NCBI RefSeq assembly: GCF_018977255.1
Contig: NW_024704746.1
Location: 32,860,001 to 32,924,000, forward strand
Direction: 5' to 3'
DNA from: Callorhinchus milii
Lineage: Eukaryota
DNA: 64,000 nt
This document shows positions 33,109-41,688 of the stretch, piece after piece. The position numbers were made by a program, and so were the translations under genes. Under the pieces are notes generated by a model that worked only from the letters and a program-made list of their open reading frames with translations, searched no databases and had not been told where the DNA came from. The stretch's first letter is position 1; each line of letters begins with the position of its first letter.

Positions 33109-34037
33109 ACACATATATTTTCATCTACAATTATTTATAATTTTTAATTTCATAATTCTATTTTCCAATCCAGTTACTTGACAACATAGGCTTCTATTAG
33201 CCAATTTTTAAACTTTTGAGGCAAGAAATAATTGTTTGTAAGTACTATCACTTTGGATTAAGAGTTCAGTGGTGAACAATGGTAGCGAGATTAGTGAACG
33301 TTCCCAAATTGTCAGTAAATGTACTAATTAACAAAGAAGCATTCCCTTTTCTTATGATACCGATTTATTCGAGAATTTATTTAAGCATAAAAATCCTTGC
33401 ATTTGATACAGCGCCTTATTGCGTCGTTGAGACTTCTCAAAGCTCTTCACAGAATATATTGTAAAGTGGATTGACTGTGTATTTTATGGACAAAACGTGG
33501 CAGTCAACTGCGCACAGCAGTGTCCCACAGTCGTGGATTAAGTGATCAAATTTTTTTATTTATTATCCCTGGAAAGTAATCCGCCAATCGACTAACAACT
33601 GGGTTCCTACTTAATTTAAATGATAATAATCAATTTAAATGACCAAATATTGTCAACTCCTATGCGTTTTGGAAATCTACAAGGTATCTTCTAGGTCTGA
33701 AAACTATAAATTTGCTTTTTCTTTTGAAATCACTCTTAGATGCATGTGCATTGTTGGCAGAAAGGATAATTTCTTCTTTCTGACAATTGAGAAACTGACA
33801 ATCCGACACATCTGGAAACTGATAGGCTTAAAATAATGAAACCAAATTATTCCCGTAATGTTCACAACTCATTATCATCATGTTTACATCATCTGCTTAG
33901 TCTCAAAGAATTCTAAAGTACCAAACCCTTCCCTATCGATATCTAATAGAATTTAATCTGTTTTGGTAGAATTAAGTTCACTTAATAGCACAAATGCTCT
34001 TATGTCAAAGCAGATTTTAATGTGAACACTTGAACAT

Positions 34038-34693
34038 TTCTGCATCTAGCCTATTTGTGAAATGCCTTATTGTCAAACTGCTTTGTATTATGAGAGTAGT
34101 TATGAACACCGAGTTAAAGCTTTATTTCCTTCACATCTGTTTCACTACGTTTTTCCAACCATTTCTATTTTGTGTTGCCTTCCTTGAAGTATATCTACAT
34201 CTTCTCATGTTCTTGATTCACTCTTAATTCCACTGTTACCCTTTTCAGTCGTTTGATGAGCCGACTTGATGTCACAGCCTGATAAATGTGAATTTGACTA
34301 GCAAATTAGGATTGATCATAAGAGGACTCCACTGTAGAACCATAAGCATGGACTGTTCAGCCAAAATGTCCACTTGGCACTGGTGGAGAACATTCTTCAA
34401 AGTAGAACACCGGAAGATAAAGCTAGAAGTCCTTCACATTAATTCCATCTCTTGCGCCATACCGAAAGGGGAATATACATGTCCAGTAAAACTGCTTCGA
34501 ATAAGAAGCAAAAAAAAACCTGCAAATAAGAGATACAAGAATGAAAAAGTTTCCAATAAAATATCCATAATGTCTTTAACATGTAGTGAAATAGATGTGA
34601 AGGAACTAAAGGTTTAACTCAGTGGTCATAACTACTCTCATAATACAAAGCAGTTTGGCAATAAGGCATTTCACAAATAGACTAGATACAGAA
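34038..34693. repeat. Long inverted repeat, arms 34038-34148 and 34583-34693
   Basis: Arms align by eye over 111 nt with 8 substitutions and no gaps. Confidence 0.95.
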
Positions 34694-36449
34694 TGATCAC
34701 ATAGGTTAGAACCTGTGTCCTGTTCTACTGTCTCATTGCATCCCAAAGTTGTTCTGGGTTCACTTTTTCAAACCCATTTAAAATTTTGTATATCCAGACA
34801 AGTTTCCTTCAGTAGCACTGCAATAATCACCAATTATGAAGTTAAACTGATCTTAATTATCAAGCTCGGCTGTGACTATCACTGTTTAGCACACTTGAAC
34901 AAGTATAAAAGGAACTCTGACTTCAGAGATGGGTTTATAACAAATTTCAAAGCTACGTCCCTAAAATCATTGCAAAGAAACTGCTTCAAAAACACTATGC
35001 AACTCCTGGCTATGATGACAGAAATATTTGGCTTAGGTCCATCTGTCCTAACCTTCATACCAGAGAACTGGAATGCCTGGAAAGATCAAAGTCATTGTAG
35101 AAAAAAAGGATAAATATGGTGTCAGAAATGGCACTTGGCCACCTTGGCAGAGGTTATTGTCATTGAAAACTAACACTAGTTACTAGATGCACTTAGTTGT
35201 AAAAGTCTTCCGGTATATGTCTAATAGATGTCTCCAACCTTCACATTTAACCTGCTCTTTCAAAACATGTTAAGGCAGTGACCATTGAATAAAATCCTAT
35301 GTAATAAGGGAATGTACAGGACCTGAAAACATGATTACAATCTATTTGGCTCATTCTAAAGTTATTCTTTTTAAATCTCATACTATCTTTCATAACCATC
35401 AAATAACTTGTTTGACAGAAAGCTACCTGATACTCTCTTTGCAGACACATTCTGTCTCGGTGGCAGTTAACCTATTTCACACTTCACCACTTCTCTGTGC
35501 AAAATAATTCAATCTGAACTGTCTATCATCTTCTTTCTTCTGAGCTCAAGTTCCTGTCTCCATGTTAATTTTTTGCTGTGCTCATTGAAAGTGTCATTCC
35601 ATTTATTGGATTTGCAGGCCCCTTCGGAGTAAGATTATAGCTTAATTATGGGAGGAACATTCTGGTTGTTGGGTGCAGTTATTTCAAATAAAACCCCAAT
35701 AATGATTAAGACAAATTCTTAAACATAAGATTAAACTGTGACACTGGGAAATTCCATGCTGACTAACCTTTCAAAGTGTTTAGGAACCGATCAATATTTT
35801 TTAGCTTTCTATTTCCTGATAATAGCGGCTCATCAAAGTCGACATGTTCCAGATTGGGCCTAGAATTCAATGTGTAGGTGGATAAAATGGAGAAAATGGT
35901 ACTCGAAGCTTTAAAGGGAGGGCCACTTCATTGATGTCGAAATCCTGTGGATTGTCCGCAAGTCATGTGGAGGAGGGCTGTTGTCAGCTCTGGCCATCAG
36001 CCTACAGATTCTGTGGCCAGGGCTAAAGTATAGGGCGGAAATATATTCCCTGGTGAATGCTGTTCACAGCACCTGCCAGAGAAGCAATATTTTTACCAGA
36101 AATCAGGAACATTTCAGTGGGTCATGAGCAAGGAAAATGATGAATACAATCGAGGAGTCAGAAATAAATTGCACTAAAATCCTCAGATCAACGCAACAGC
36201 ACACAGCTCTCTGTCACCATATATTCAAGTGAATCTGTTCAGGAGCATGTTGTTGAGTAATGTATATCAATGTCATTTAAAATGATACATGACTGTTCTG
36301 TGCTCACTCTTCCTCCCTGCAGAAAGTTGCCAAAATCTTTTAAGATACATATATCAGGCAGCCATTTATGAGAATTTGTCTGTAAAAAAGAATTATGGTT
36401 GGAAAAATCGAAGTAATAAATTACCTACCACATTGCCTCTTGTATAGCT

Positions 36450-36507
36450 TTATGTCATGGATTGTGCAGGTTCACACATAAACTGGGTTTGCACTTCATT
36501 TTCCTCC
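36450..36507 (-). CDS. KITLG: KITLG last coding exon (approx. exon 9); exon continues as UTR to a donor at about 36429
   Basis: ggttttacag| acceptor in phase 2; encodes EENEVQTQFMCEPAQSMT* with TAA at 36452-36450, then TG|gtaggt donor. Stop-then-short-UTR-then-intron layout matches recalled mammalian KITLG. Confidence 0.68.
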
Positions 36508-37294: not shown

Positions 37295-40127
37295 AGAGTG
37301 AATGGTATCTGCAGCGCAATTAAATTGTAACCCATTTCACACAATAAAGAAGTGGTTATATGGTGCTGTACTATATTTTCTGCAATCTGCACTTGCCAAA
37401 TAATGCTACTGGCAATGCAAAACAAGTTGGAATTAAAGTTACCTGAGGTAGCTGAGGCAACATTTTGTCACAGTCAGCCCCCTCTTTTACATAACCTGTT
37501 TGTCTTCAATATTATTTATCAGAAAATTATATTTTCTGTTGTTCATTGTATGCATTGGAAACATTAACCAATTGAAAGTGTTTAATGTTTCTATTATGTA
37601 GTTTAAAGCATTGATTGCTTAAATGGGGTTATTACCTGACCTGAATTCGCTCGGGTAAACCCGTACAAATGGCGAAAGTTCGGAAAAGAAATAACACATG
37701 GGCATATCGGTTTTCAGTGTAATATTTCTTTAAATATACTTTTAATGTATTTAAATAAGATTGTGACCCAGATGGTGCCATCAAGTCTCCAAAGGCATCG
37801 GTTGCAACAGTTTGGTGGGGTAACTTACCATTCTAATATACAAATGAAGGATTGGAAAGCGTACTTGTACTTGTACCCTATTTGGCAACTGAGGGGAGAA
37901 CCCTCTAAGTTAAGAACTGGTTCAGTGCACATAGGTTTACCCACAAAGTTCTCTGGTAAGGCCTGTTTTTCATCATTAGCCTGAGGGATTTTTTAAGCCT
38001 TAAATCATGTAGCTAGTAAGCAGAGTTCTAGCGCCTGCAGCACTTTCATGTCTTGTGCCCCAAGATTCCCCTGCAAACTATTTGGTTTGTATAATAATAA
38101 TAGTCCTTGCGTTTGATGTAGTGCTTTTCACGTCTTCTAGACGTCTCAAAGTGCTTTGAGAATATACTGTAAAGTGAATTAACTGCATTTTTGTGGGGGA
38201 AATGCAGCAGCCAATTTCGCACAGCAATGTCCCACAAACAGTCGTGGATTGAAGTGACCAAATTATTATCGTTTTTTTCTTTTTTTAATGAAAGAATCTA
38301 AAATATATATGTTTATCCAACATTGGCCTTGTAACTGTGGCATTAACATTAACTAACTGTTTCAGTAATGTCTATCAGTCTAAGTCACTAATAATGTATT
38401 CATTATTGTAAGCTGATGGCAGAGTTGTTTACATACGACCCCATTATAATGCACTTCGGTATATCAGAGATCCATGCACTGTGAATGCCCAGCACATTGG
38501 AAGTGTGGTACACACTGGGTTCGTAGTACAGAGGCACTGAGGTGCTCAGTGCAGTCAACAGCAATAGCGTTGATGACCTGCCCACCTGGAAGTGCTGAAT
38601 GTCAACCAACACAACAAATACTTGTGCTTATATGGCGCCCTCCACTCAGAGCAGTGTCTCAGAGCACTTGAATACAATCACGCTGCATTGTGATCTGTTT
38701 TAACACGGGGTCCAATTTCATGGACCAGACCACTGTGTTATAACAAGATATGATTCATTTAACGCTCTGTTTACAATGTTCTGTCAGTGATTTTTGCTTT
38801 CAGGTTCCTGAAGTCTACTCCCATCTTTGAACATCTTTCTTTCTCAGTCTTTAGCAGTTATGTGTAAATATGCTTTTGCCTTTTTTGTGGTATATTTGTA
38901 GACTAATGGAATCGTAGAAATTTACAGCGTAGGAGGCATCTGGCGCATTGAGTCTGCACCAGCTCTCAGAGCCAGCTACACTTTCAATCCCAATGCCCTG
39001 CCCTCTCCCCATACCCCTTCAAGCTTCTTTCATATATGTCTCCTTCCCACTTGAAACCCACAGTGTAATCTGTCTCTACCACTTAACTTAGCAGGGCTAT
39101 CCACATCCCAACAACTTTCTATTTGATGAGAAGACTCTTAGCTATAGTTATTTTAGTTACTCGCTATTGACTAAATAGAATTATATGCTCAGAAATGAGC
39201 CTTTCTTCCCCATGTTGGCTGTTTTTGTTTTTTCACTATATTTGGAAAATAAAAAAGCAGTTAAAAAGTACTGTATCAAAGCTGAAATAGGCTGACTAAA
39301 ATTAATAGCATTTTAATAATAAGAATTTGGGAAGATGTGGCATAAAAAGTTTTTTTTGACCCATCAAGCCAGTTCCTTGCCATAGACAGTAGACAATCAT
39401 AGAGTCACCTGTTATAGACTCCTTCATTTTAATCTCCTGCAGAAGGAAAACTCAGAAATGTAGCTCCCGTAAATTAACCCAGTTGAGGTTTTAGGTCATT
39501 TAGTCTTGTGTTGCAGGTCATCAGTAACACTAAAATCCACATTACTGAGCCCTGCCTCAACGCATTCCACAGATAACATTCCCATGGTCCCAATTTGATT
39601 GGATCACTGTGTTCCAGAGAGTATTTGTTGGTCTATGTCAGTACTTGCCCCTCCAGCCTTTTGTCAATTTCTTAGCCAGATGCTTAATGGACTACAATAT
39701 TCCTGTAATTACATTACCGATAACATTGTGGGAATAGTGAATGGATGAGAACGCTTGTAACGCCCATGGTATACCAAAAGTGTTGAGACATCTGCAATGT
39801 AATCTGTGTTGACTGTATTTTATAAGAAAACACGGCAGTCAATTTGTGCAATGCAGTATCCCGTAAAAAGCCATGAAGTGAATAATTAATTTCACCGGGG
39901 GAATTGTTGGGCAGGACACTTTTGTATTAGTGCCATAGGATATTGGGAGCATAGCAGATTACAATCCAAGAATATTAGAAAACAGAATTAGGGAATGTCT
40001 TTTTCACTTCTGATATATTTTGAATTCAGAATTTATAATAACCTCTGTATTTTGATGTTGCATCTTATGGGGGAAATAATATATTTTTGAAATAATGCCC
40101 AAACTCTGGATAATAAAAAAGTTGTAC

Positions 40128-40174
40128 CTTCTTTCCTCTGGTTGGCTTTGATTCTCTCTGTTTCTTCTCCTTTG
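40128..40174 (-). CDS. KITLG: KITLG juxtamembrane cytoplasmic exon (approx. exon 8), 47 nt
   Basis: tctttccatag| ... AG|gtacaa (phase 0 to 2); encodes QRRRNRENQSQPEER(R), a basic stop-transfer segment after a 95-nt intron. Confidence 0.75.
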
Positions 40175-40269
40175 CTATGGAAAGACATTTGTACAGATTT
40201 AAAAAACTGACTAAACTGTATTCTTTCTAATTGAGAGACATCTATTATCAATTTAGAGAGCAACCATAC

Positions 40270-40427
40270 CTTCAGTCTAACTGCCAGACATGTTAGAGGC
40301 ACAGAGAGACTCACAGTGGAAAGAATGGTGACTATAACCACGATAAGGTATTTCACTGATGTACGACATCCAGGATCTTCAATTCTGCTCTCTGAATCAA
40401 TTGAAAAAGGGATTTCTGTTGTTGGGT
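40270..40427 (-). CDS. KITLG: KITLG transmembrane exon (approx. exon 7), 158 nt
   Basis: ttttgtcaacag| ... AAG|gtatgg (phase 1 to 0, as in mammals); encodes PTTEIPFSIDSESRIEDPGCRTSVK, hydrophobic YLIVVIVTILSTVSLSVPLTCLAV, then RLK. Confidence 0.85.
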
Positions 40428-41688
40428 CTGTTGACAAAATAATAATAGTTTTGCGTCAATGTGGCATCAAACAGGATAACTTTTCGTGCAGTTTCGGCAC
40501 AAAGTTAAACTGAGATTTCAGTAGTAGTAAACGATTTACTGTTCAGTTTACAAACATCAGCTATTCCCTTGGACCACACCTTTCCCAGTTCTTAAGGGAT
40601 ATGGGTCGACCAGTGGGAACAGAACCACTTTGCTGGCCTTTATGGACCAGTGATTCAGTTATTAAGTTAAGCAGAGTTCAAAAAATAAGCACTCGCTACA
40701 GATTGGAAATACAGAAAGCAATTGACTGCTTTGTAGGCTGGTGAGAAAAGGTGATCCAGGGGTAATCACACTCATCACAGCTGCAATCATAAAGCTGCAA
40801 AAGATAAAATCAAGTAAGAAAAGGGTTGGGACACAGCAATAAAAGTTAATAAAGGGAATTTATTAATTGTAATATTTTATAAAGTTGTGTTACAGTATTT
40901 GCAGAAAGTTACTGGAAGTCCAAGCTCAAGTGAAAAGAGAATAGTGCGAGAAAGAAGATATCACGGGGGGTGGGGGGGGGTTTCTGCTCCATTTATTTCA
41001 TGAAGCAAATTCATTGGCAATGGCTAAGCAACACCAACAAACAAACAACAAATTACATTTGTATACCGCCTTTCACGTCAGGAGGATGTCCCAAGGCGCT
41101 GGCATTCCATTTGGTAAGCTTCCCTAACTTATATTTGTGTACTTGTAAATAACTGCAATGCAACTTTGTATGCATAATGTTATGCTCCATTTATAATACG
41201 ATATTCAAATTGCATTGCAGTTATCTGTAGGTGAATTGATCAAGAGCCAATAGTGATCTGAGCCTGGGGTTGCAGTACAGCTCTGTTAAAACGCACCTCT
41301 TTAGAACTTCAGATATAACACGGTTGTACTGTGGACCCCATTCACTGTGAGTACGTACAACCAGCCCAATTGTTTCCTGTGTGATCTGGGCGACTTTCAT
41401 GCTAAGATTGCTGATATCTGGATCATGAGGTCAGTGCCGAACTGATGATGGCAGCGACAAGATGACCTGGAAGTTGGCCATTTTACTTTTAGCACAGCTG
41501 TGTGTTTGTGAGGTCCATCCAGCTCTTTTGCCTCGCTACAGATTGGAATTTTATGAATTTTCCAAACATTGCATTACAACAAGGCTCCACAGCTGTTTCA
41601 GACAGTTCGCCAAAGTGGTTCATCAAAACACTAGAAAAAAAACAATTTTTTCCTGCTTCACACATTACAGCAAATGTAAATAGGGATT

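What the first reader, a model, noticed from the sequence alone, without database searches (positions are those of the whole stretch)
34038..34693. 111-bp inverted repeat that loops out the 3' splice site of the KITLG terminal exon
Seen in sequence: arms 34038-34148 and 34583-34693 are reverse complements with 8 substitutions and no gaps, and resemble no repeat family elsewhere in the window. One arm is in the last intron, ending about 60 nt before the acceptor (AG at 34521-34520). The other is about 370 nt into the 3'UTR. Inference: the pre-mRNA, but not the spliced mRNA, could form a long duplex enclosing the branch point, pyrimidine tract and acceptor. It could therefore tune last-intron splicing, direct ADAR editing of the UTR arm, or mark intron-retaining transcripts. 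Three of the substitutions give G-U pairs on the KITLG strand. A neutral local inverted duplication remains possible.
Basis: partly seen in the sequence, partly recalled or inferred. Interest (0 to 1): 0.72.

Follow-up and report, generated by a model that had tools for sequence, protein, structure and literature searches.

The report
Backwards UTR copy in KITLG intron
A cartilaginous-fish KITLG (stem cell factor) gene has a 111-base backwards copy of its own 3' untranslated region in the last intron, which is predicted to pair across the splice site in unspliced RNA but is most likely a tolerated DNA-copying scar, because the normally spliced message is present in the samples examined.

Summary
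The repeat is real: arms 34038-34148 and 34583-34693, 8 substitutions, no gaps. The acceptor at 34521-34520 is used: contigs of 4 of 4 runs join across it. It is not a MITE: only three full copies were found in the genome. The third, 630 kb away, matches the UTR for about 280 nt, past the arm, so the UTR arm is the parent and the intron arm its inverted copy. The G-U argument fails (3 G-U against 2 A-C), changes split 4:4 between the arms, and one paired base varies in 2 of 4 runs. No editing or special retention was seen, but contigs cannot exclude them. Two hints favour function: the arm is closer to the third copy than its flank (simulated p 0.003, 0.014-0.018 given detection; natural control 2 of 76), and the UTR arm gained an AAUAAA that the duplex would cover. 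Best reading: a local inverted copy with little effect. The geometry is known from a SPINK1 Alu allele. The scan noted similar intronic inverted copies in four other genes of this genome.

The parts
34583..34693 (-). Intron arm, 111 nt; likely the derived inverted copy
   Evidence: its flanks have no homology to the third locus (217 and 225 of 300 shuffles as good)
34038..34148 (-). UTR arm, 111 nt; parent context
   Evidence: homology to the third locus continues past its outer end (0 of 300 shuffles)
34520..34560 (-). Acceptor AG (34521-34520), pyrimidine tract and likeliest branch-point motif (A at 34542), all in the loop
   Evidence: junction in 4 of 4 runs; motif scan; the branch point itself is inferred
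34520..36428 (-). Last intron seen, 1909 nt, GT-AG, inside the 3' UTR
   Evidence: joints; sequence
33584..34519 (-). Terminal non-coding exon (minimum extent; 3' end not mapped)
   Evidence: contig pieces, table 8
36429..36507 (-). Penultimate exon; stop codon at 36452-36450, 21 nt before the donor
   Evidence: joints; frame read by eye
40128..40174 (-). Cytoplasmic-tail exon
   Evidence: joints
40270..40429 (-). Exon with the hydrophobic, transmembrane-like segment
   Evidence: frame 40033-40455
34121..34126 (-). AATAAA inside the UTR arm, made by a UTR-arm-specific change at 34125; use as a poly(A) signal not shown
   Evidence: predicted 4-5 of 6 bases paired in pre-mRNA, 0 of 6 in the exon alone
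33865..34144 (-). UTR segment with an old collinear copy at G000:C5:32263671-32263937
34405..34439 (-). Degenerate direct copy of the start of the UTR arm, in the loop (28 of 35 columns)
   Evidence: 0 of 1000 shuffles, best of 6 comparisons

Best explanation
The last intron of this KITLG gene holds a 111-nt inverted copy of part of the gene's own 3' UTR, likely made by a local template switch or break repair, which is predicted to pair with the UTR in unspliced RNA but likely has little effect on the gene. Shown: the repeat, the acceptor in use, three full copies found on one contig, and the UTR as parent context. Inferred: an old duplication first copied about 280 nt of this UTR to or from a site 630 kb away, and a later event laid the first 111 nt backwards 434 nt upstream. 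Both arms then drifted equally (4 changes each). The stem can form seconds after the acceptor is transcribed, but it leaves the tract and AG in a 434-nt loop, so splicing goes ahead and removes the duplex.
For: UTR arm, not intron arm, shares flank with the third locus. Changes split 4:4, evenly spaced (longest run 32, P 0.51), with no G-U excess. A base paired in the model (34097) differs in 2 of 4 runs. Spliced joins in 4 of 4 runs. Tract and AG accessibility 0.53 to 0.47. Close inverted repeats are common here: 51 in 960 kb, 7 of them locally low-copy, and 3 repeat-derived pairs also reach 100 bp, 88% and a spacer under 1 kb. Short-range template switching is widespread in vertebrate genomes (PMC7954356, abstract). 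With the most gap-tolerant flank alignment the all-neutral model has the best AIC.
Against: The arm is closer to the third copy than the flank is: 22 of 106 differences against 28 of 143 to 53 of 155, Fisher p 0.026 to 0.87 over six settings; simulation 15 of 4661, and 13 of 939 or 4 of 218 given detection; natural control 2 of 76 pieces from 2 of 18 queries. With the stricter flank alignment the model 'one old event, both arms slow' beats neutral by 6 AIC units. The third copy starts within 4 nt of the arm's inner end, which two independent events do not predict. It has the highest arm identity and length of the 7 low-copy repeats. The same geometry lowers expression in SPINK1.
Confidence: 0.58

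Rival explanations
1. The duplex is old and kept by selection. It damps last-intron splicing or covers the proximal AAUAAA at 34126-34121 until the intron is out, and so would set KITLG output or UTR length.
For: Slow arm against the third copy; star model favoured under one alignment; shared inner boundary; AAUAAA gained in the UTR arm, predicted paired in pre-mRNA and open in the exon alone; SPINK1 precedent; long-range pairings are linked to splicing and 3' end choice (PMC8052449, passages).
Against: Use of that signal is not shown: contigs run through it in 4 of 4 runs. About 6% chance of gaining it with 4 changes (5 of 333 single changes), noticed after the fact. The gaining change itself broke a pair. 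Pair-breaking variant in 2 of 4 runs. The rate contrast vanishes under 3 of 6 alignment settings.
Confidence: 0.2
2. The intron arm acts as an editing-complementary sequence: ADAR would edit the UTR arm before splicing.
For: A 111-bp near-perfect stem with 44 adenosines in the UTR arm; intron-guided editing depends on splicing rate (PMC5291252, abstract). A>G on the KITLG strand at 34023, 15 nt outside the arm, in 4 of 4 runs.
Against: Both A>G differences (34023, 33914) are at full depth, outside the arm and, for 34023, mostly unpaired in the model (0.86). That fits reference-specific alleles: the four best holders also lack 8-10% of the reference words. No DNA comparison was obtained. Low-level editing could be incidental.
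Confidence: 0.1
3. The repeat is as old as the third copy and neutral, but its arms are kept alike by conversion or template switching between them.
For: Shared inner boundary; arm homogenisation is a described process (PMC8604942, abstract).
Against: No conversion tract in the mismatch spacing. Conversion alone would not slow the arm against the third copy (inference).
Confidence: 0.09
4. The arms belong to a MITE or other mobile element.
For: Four related pieces start at about the same boundary and have different lengths, as truncated retroposed copies do. Genome DNA search misses copies near 64% identity.
Against: 3 full copies found genome-wide; the 22-mer gave 9 hits against 14 for the control and none of the 6 extra hits extended; loop is single-copy; no clear target duplication or tail; no Rfam family.
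Confidence: 0.03

Closest known systems
SPINK1 3' UTR Alu insertion pairing with inverted Alus of intron 3 (bioRxiv 10.1101/2020.01.30.926790; abstract, section 3.7 and Discussion read)
   Same: One arm in the 3' UTR and one in the upstream intron, enclosing an acceptor; duplex possible in pre-mRNA only.
   Different: SPINK1 is a disease allele built from multicopy Alus, with loss of mRNA and inferred intron retention. Here the arms are low-copy, 111 nt, and spliced RNA is present in 4 of 4 runs.
Short-range template-switch copies (PMC7954356, PMC8604942; abstracts read)
   Same: Local inverted copy of nearby unique sequence with abrupt ends.
   Different: No outgroup genome was available to show the event; a third, older copy shares one boundary.
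Intronic editing-complementary sequences for ADAR (PMC5291252; abstract read)
   Same: Exon-intron duplex that splicing destroys.
   Different: No edited site shown; target is non-coding; conservation untested.
Conserved long-range complementary regions and loop-out of splice sites (PMC8052449, PMC7404189; passages read)
   Same: Long-range pairing near splice and poly(A) signals.
   Different: Those are defined by cross-species conservation, untested here. There is no downstream acceptor seen to skip to.

Membership tests
MITE / non-autonomous DNA transposon | Many dispersed copies | tested here: not met
   3 full copies, all on C5; no further significant hit in 960 kb, next best E 0.066. Old copies can be missed.
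MITE / non-autonomous DNA transposon | Arms plus inner part move as one unit | tested here: not met
   Loop is single-copy and holds the used acceptor; the third locus has one arm only.
MITE / non-autonomous DNA transposon | Target-site duplication | tested here: inconclusive
   None clear by eye in the flanks.
ADAR editing-complementary sequence | Stable exon-intron duplex | tested here: met
   Predicted only: -164.1 kcal/mol arm to arm, z -14.85.
ADAR editing-complementary sequence | A-to-I editing in the exonic arm | tested here: inconclusive
   No T>C row inside 34038-34148 in the 4 runs, but contigs drop rare variants; no DNA comparison.
ADAR editing-complementary sequence | Editing lost when the intron arm is removed | not testable with these tools
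   Needs a minigene.
Splice-regulating long-range RNA structure | Encloses or covers a used splice signal | tested here: met
   Acceptor used and inside the loop; enclosed, not base-paired by the stem.
Splice-regulating long-range RNA structure | Conservation with compensatory changes across species | not testable with these tools
   No relatives held; all 14 runs listed are one organism; 2 metagenome scans empty. Paralogue-based rate test gives a hint only.
Splice-regulating long-range RNA structure | Altered splicing or retention | tested here: inconclusive
   Median contig depth, last against previous intron: 2.4/1.7, 2.1/0.2, 5.3/5.5, 0/0; contig depth cannot rank parts of a gene.
Local inverted (template-switch) duplication | Copy of nearby unique sequence with an identifiable parent | tested here: met
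   UTR arm continues into homology with the third locus, intron arm does not.
Local inverted (template-switch) duplication | Absent in an outgroup, with junction microhomology | not testable with these tools
   No outgroup genome.
Known non-coding RNA family (Rfam) | Match to a family model | tested here: not met
   None of the 5 hits at E up to 5 overlaps an arm.

The most novel reading that the evidence does not exclude
An old, selected intron-UTR duplex works as a splicing-released lock on 3' end formation. While the last intron is present its arm covers an AAUAAA that the UTR arm gained; splicing removes the arm and opens the signal, so KITLG UTR length or output is tied to last-intron removal. 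Both arms would have changed about five times more slowly than neutral DNA since one founding event, with the copy 630 kb away as the clock.
Probability: 0.1. Interest if true: 0.68.

Novelty: new member of a known kind. Interest (0 to 1): 0.33.

Why it matters
If neutral, it is one more intronic inverted copy, and it shows that a geometry linked to disease in SPINK1 can be tolerated when the arms are about 110 nt and the splice signals stay in the loop. If functional, it would be a unique-sequence natural switch linking last-intron splicing to poly(A) choice in a dosage-sensitive developmental ligand (dosage sensitivity recalled), and it is cheap to test. The third copy gives an in-genome clock for the age of the arms.

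Tried and rejected
No RNA holder was on record (10 runs guessed RNA); the spliced joins show that the four laid are transcript-derived. No DNA run could be laid (one search gave no result), so the A>G differences at 33914 and 34023 stay unresolved. The bin holding the intron arm has almost no cover; this is not used, since the arms share 31-mers and assembly may drop the rare path. No T>C inside the arm: not evidence of absence. My first idea, a discrete 110-bp mobile unit with the same ends in all copies, was dropped when homology ran on past the arm. A shared SINE further along is not shown to be one insertion: two segments between give 43 and 232 of 300 shuffles. G-U enrichment rejected. 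An inversion breakpoint at the UTR was rejected because CEP290 and KITLG keep the same strand (human order recalled). No gene found at the third locus: no Pfam hit over its curated cut-off in 87 frames and none at E 0.001 in 94 shorter frames, atlas best 0.83; this does not show it is intergenic. MGAT4-type hit on C5 lies 4.5 Mb away. Metagenome scans 0 and 0. Scan look-ups by sequence, near place and words were empty.

Full report
Observation. The arms 34038-34148 and 34583-34693 are reverse complements with 8 substitutions and no gap. The minus strand folds at -277.6 kcal/mol, z -14.85, 0 of 20 shuffles as good. In 960 kb around the locus there are 51 inverted repeats of at least 50 bp, 80% identity and a spacer up to 2 kb. 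Seven are locally low-copy, and this one is the longest and most alike of those seven. Three SINE-type pairs also reach 100 bp, 88% and a spacer under 1 kb. So the repeat is not chance sequence, but a stem of this strength is not rare here.

Gene and splice site. PF02404 (SCF) matches two minus-strand exons in the window, and CEP290 lies about 68 kb away on the same strand. Contigs of 4 of 4 runs laid (4 of the 14 listed; 2 studies; RNA status a guess) join three GT-AG introns: 40270 to 40174, 40128 to 36507 and 36429 to 34519. The stop codon, read by eye, lies 21 nt before that intron's donor. A mostly UTR tenth exon is also described for human SCF (PMC3376141, passages). The branch-point motif at the usual distance (A at 34542) is in the loop; two weaker-placed ones lie in the intron arm.

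Copy number and parent. DNA and pattern searches give three full copies, all on C5 (two with the stricter 30-mer). A 22-mer with 3 mismatches gave 9 hits against 14 for the control, and none of the 6 extra hits extended. The loop is single-copy and no Rfam family overlaps an arm. The third copy, at G000:C5:32263671, first seemed to share both ends with the arms. It does not: homology runs on, collinear, to about 33865 in the UTR (0 and 1 of 300 shuffles for the two flank segments), with none beside the intron arm. The UTR arm is thus the parent context and the intron arm the inverted copy. The third copy does begin within 4 nt of the arm's inner end, and a degenerate 35-nt piece of the same start lies in the loop. 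This shared boundary is unexplained. The genome search misses copies near 64% identity, so older copies may exist.

Signs of selection, against. With the third copy as outgroup the 8 changes split 4 and 4 and are evenly spread. The five transitions give 3 G-U and 2 A-C pairs on the KITLG strand, the reverse on the other strand, so G-U pairs are not enriched. A base paired in the model, 34097, differs in 2 of 4 runs; its partner is poorly covered. Predicted unpaired probability of the tract and AG moves from 0.53 to 0.47 as the duplex forms. Intronic contigs occur at similar low depth in the last and previous introns in 3 of 4 runs, higher in the last in one, which contigs cannot measure well.

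Signs of selection, for. The arm differs from the third copy at 19-22 of about 105 sites with 2-3 gaps. The flank differs at 28 of 143 to 53 of 155 with 6-17 gaps; Fisher p runs from 0.026 to 0.87 over six settings (0.003 or less with a longer flank that overshoots the homology). A score-based simulation under even rates gave 2 of 1330 and 15 of 4661, or 13 of 939 and 4 of 218 among detectable cases. Natural old repeat pairs gave 2 of 76 non-independent pieces. A model with one founding event and both arms slow beats the neutral model by 6 AIC units on the stricter alignment and loses by 3 on the looser one. The contrast could also come from a conserved UTR element, constraint at the third locus or uneven mutation. 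Separately, one UTR-arm change (34125) made an AATAAA that is predicted 4-5 of 6 paired in pre-mRNA and fully open in the exon alone. The chance of this is about 6%, it was noticed after the fact, and contigs run through the site.

Editing. No A>G row falls in the arm in the 4 runs. Two lie outside it, at 34023 and 33914, at full depth in 4 of 4. They fit reference-specific alleles, since the four best holders lack 8-10% of the reference words (inference), but no DNA comparison was obtained, so they remain open.

Mechanism. Most likely a template switch or repair event laid 111 nt of UTR backwards into the intron (inferred; PMC7954356 and PMC8604942, abstracts). Terminal introns are often removed late, coupled to 3' end formation (established knowledge, recalled), so the stem likely does form in some transcripts. 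It encloses but does not cover the tract and AG, and splicing removes it. I put about 0.58 on little effect, 0.2 on a selected splicing or poly(A) role, 0.1 on an editing role, 0.09 on an old repeat kept alike by conversion and 0.03 on a mobile element.

Known kinds. The geometry matches the SPINK1 3' UTR Alu allele, where pairing with intron 3 Alus is linked to loss of mRNA and inferred retention (bioRxiv 10.1101/2020.01.30.926790; abstract, section 3.7, Discussion). Loop-out of splice sites and links between long-range pairing and 3' ends are described (PMC7404189 and PMC8052449, passages), as is intron-guided editing (PMC5291252, abstract). Searches for KITLG with inverted repeat and splicing (5 papers, 4 listed), with cartilaginous fish (5) and with alternative polyadenylation (1) showed nothing on this element in listings; no supplements were read. 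Earlier scan notes report intronic inverted copies in CLNK, VAX2, PRAG1 and MOB1B of this genome; I did not check them.

Verdict. Real, correctly placed, low-copy, origin largely explained, function unshown, with two modest hints worth one comparative alignment. New member of a known kind; interest 0.33.

Noticed in passing
G000:C5:32263671-32263937 (L003:1501-1767): Old collinear copy of about 280 nt of the KITLG UTR, opposite strand, 630 kb away; gene context not identified. Its first 40 nt are the best kept (5 differences in 40) and hold a 27-nt perfect match to the intron arm.
   Followed up: yes
window 34405-34439, minus: Degenerate direct copy of the start of the UTR arm inside the loop; a 61-nt stretch holding it could pair weakly with the intron arm earlier in transcription (-34.9 kcal/mol, no control).
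   Followed up: partly
window 34493-34510, minus: Small six-base-loop hairpin 10 nt into the terminal exon, pairs at 0.87-0.99; resembles Roquin/Regnase decay stem-loops (recalled, untested).
   Followed up: no
window 40385-40600: The spliced contig of X2 (and by length X1) starts at 40429, and sequence upstream has depth 12-17 in 3 of 4 runs; may reflect alternative splicing upstream of the transmembrane exon, as for mammalian exon 6.
   Followed up: no
window 34510-34518: The T run just after the acceptor seems to differ by one base between runs (skip 1908 in 2 of 4, 1909 in 2 of 4).
   Followed up: no
window 33914 and 34023: A>G on the KITLG strand at full depth in 4 of 4 runs; allele or editing unresolved.
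   Followed up: partly
G000:C5:32300436-32300855, 32963390-32964088, 32933224-32933582 (L018:9224-9582): Other close inverted repeats of low local copy number (82-106 nt, 82-90%); the first has a further palindrome in its spacer.
   Followed up: partly
L060:3303-3899:+: 199-aa frame with weak PH and His-rich hits; possibly PHLDA1 (guess from recall).
   Followed up: no
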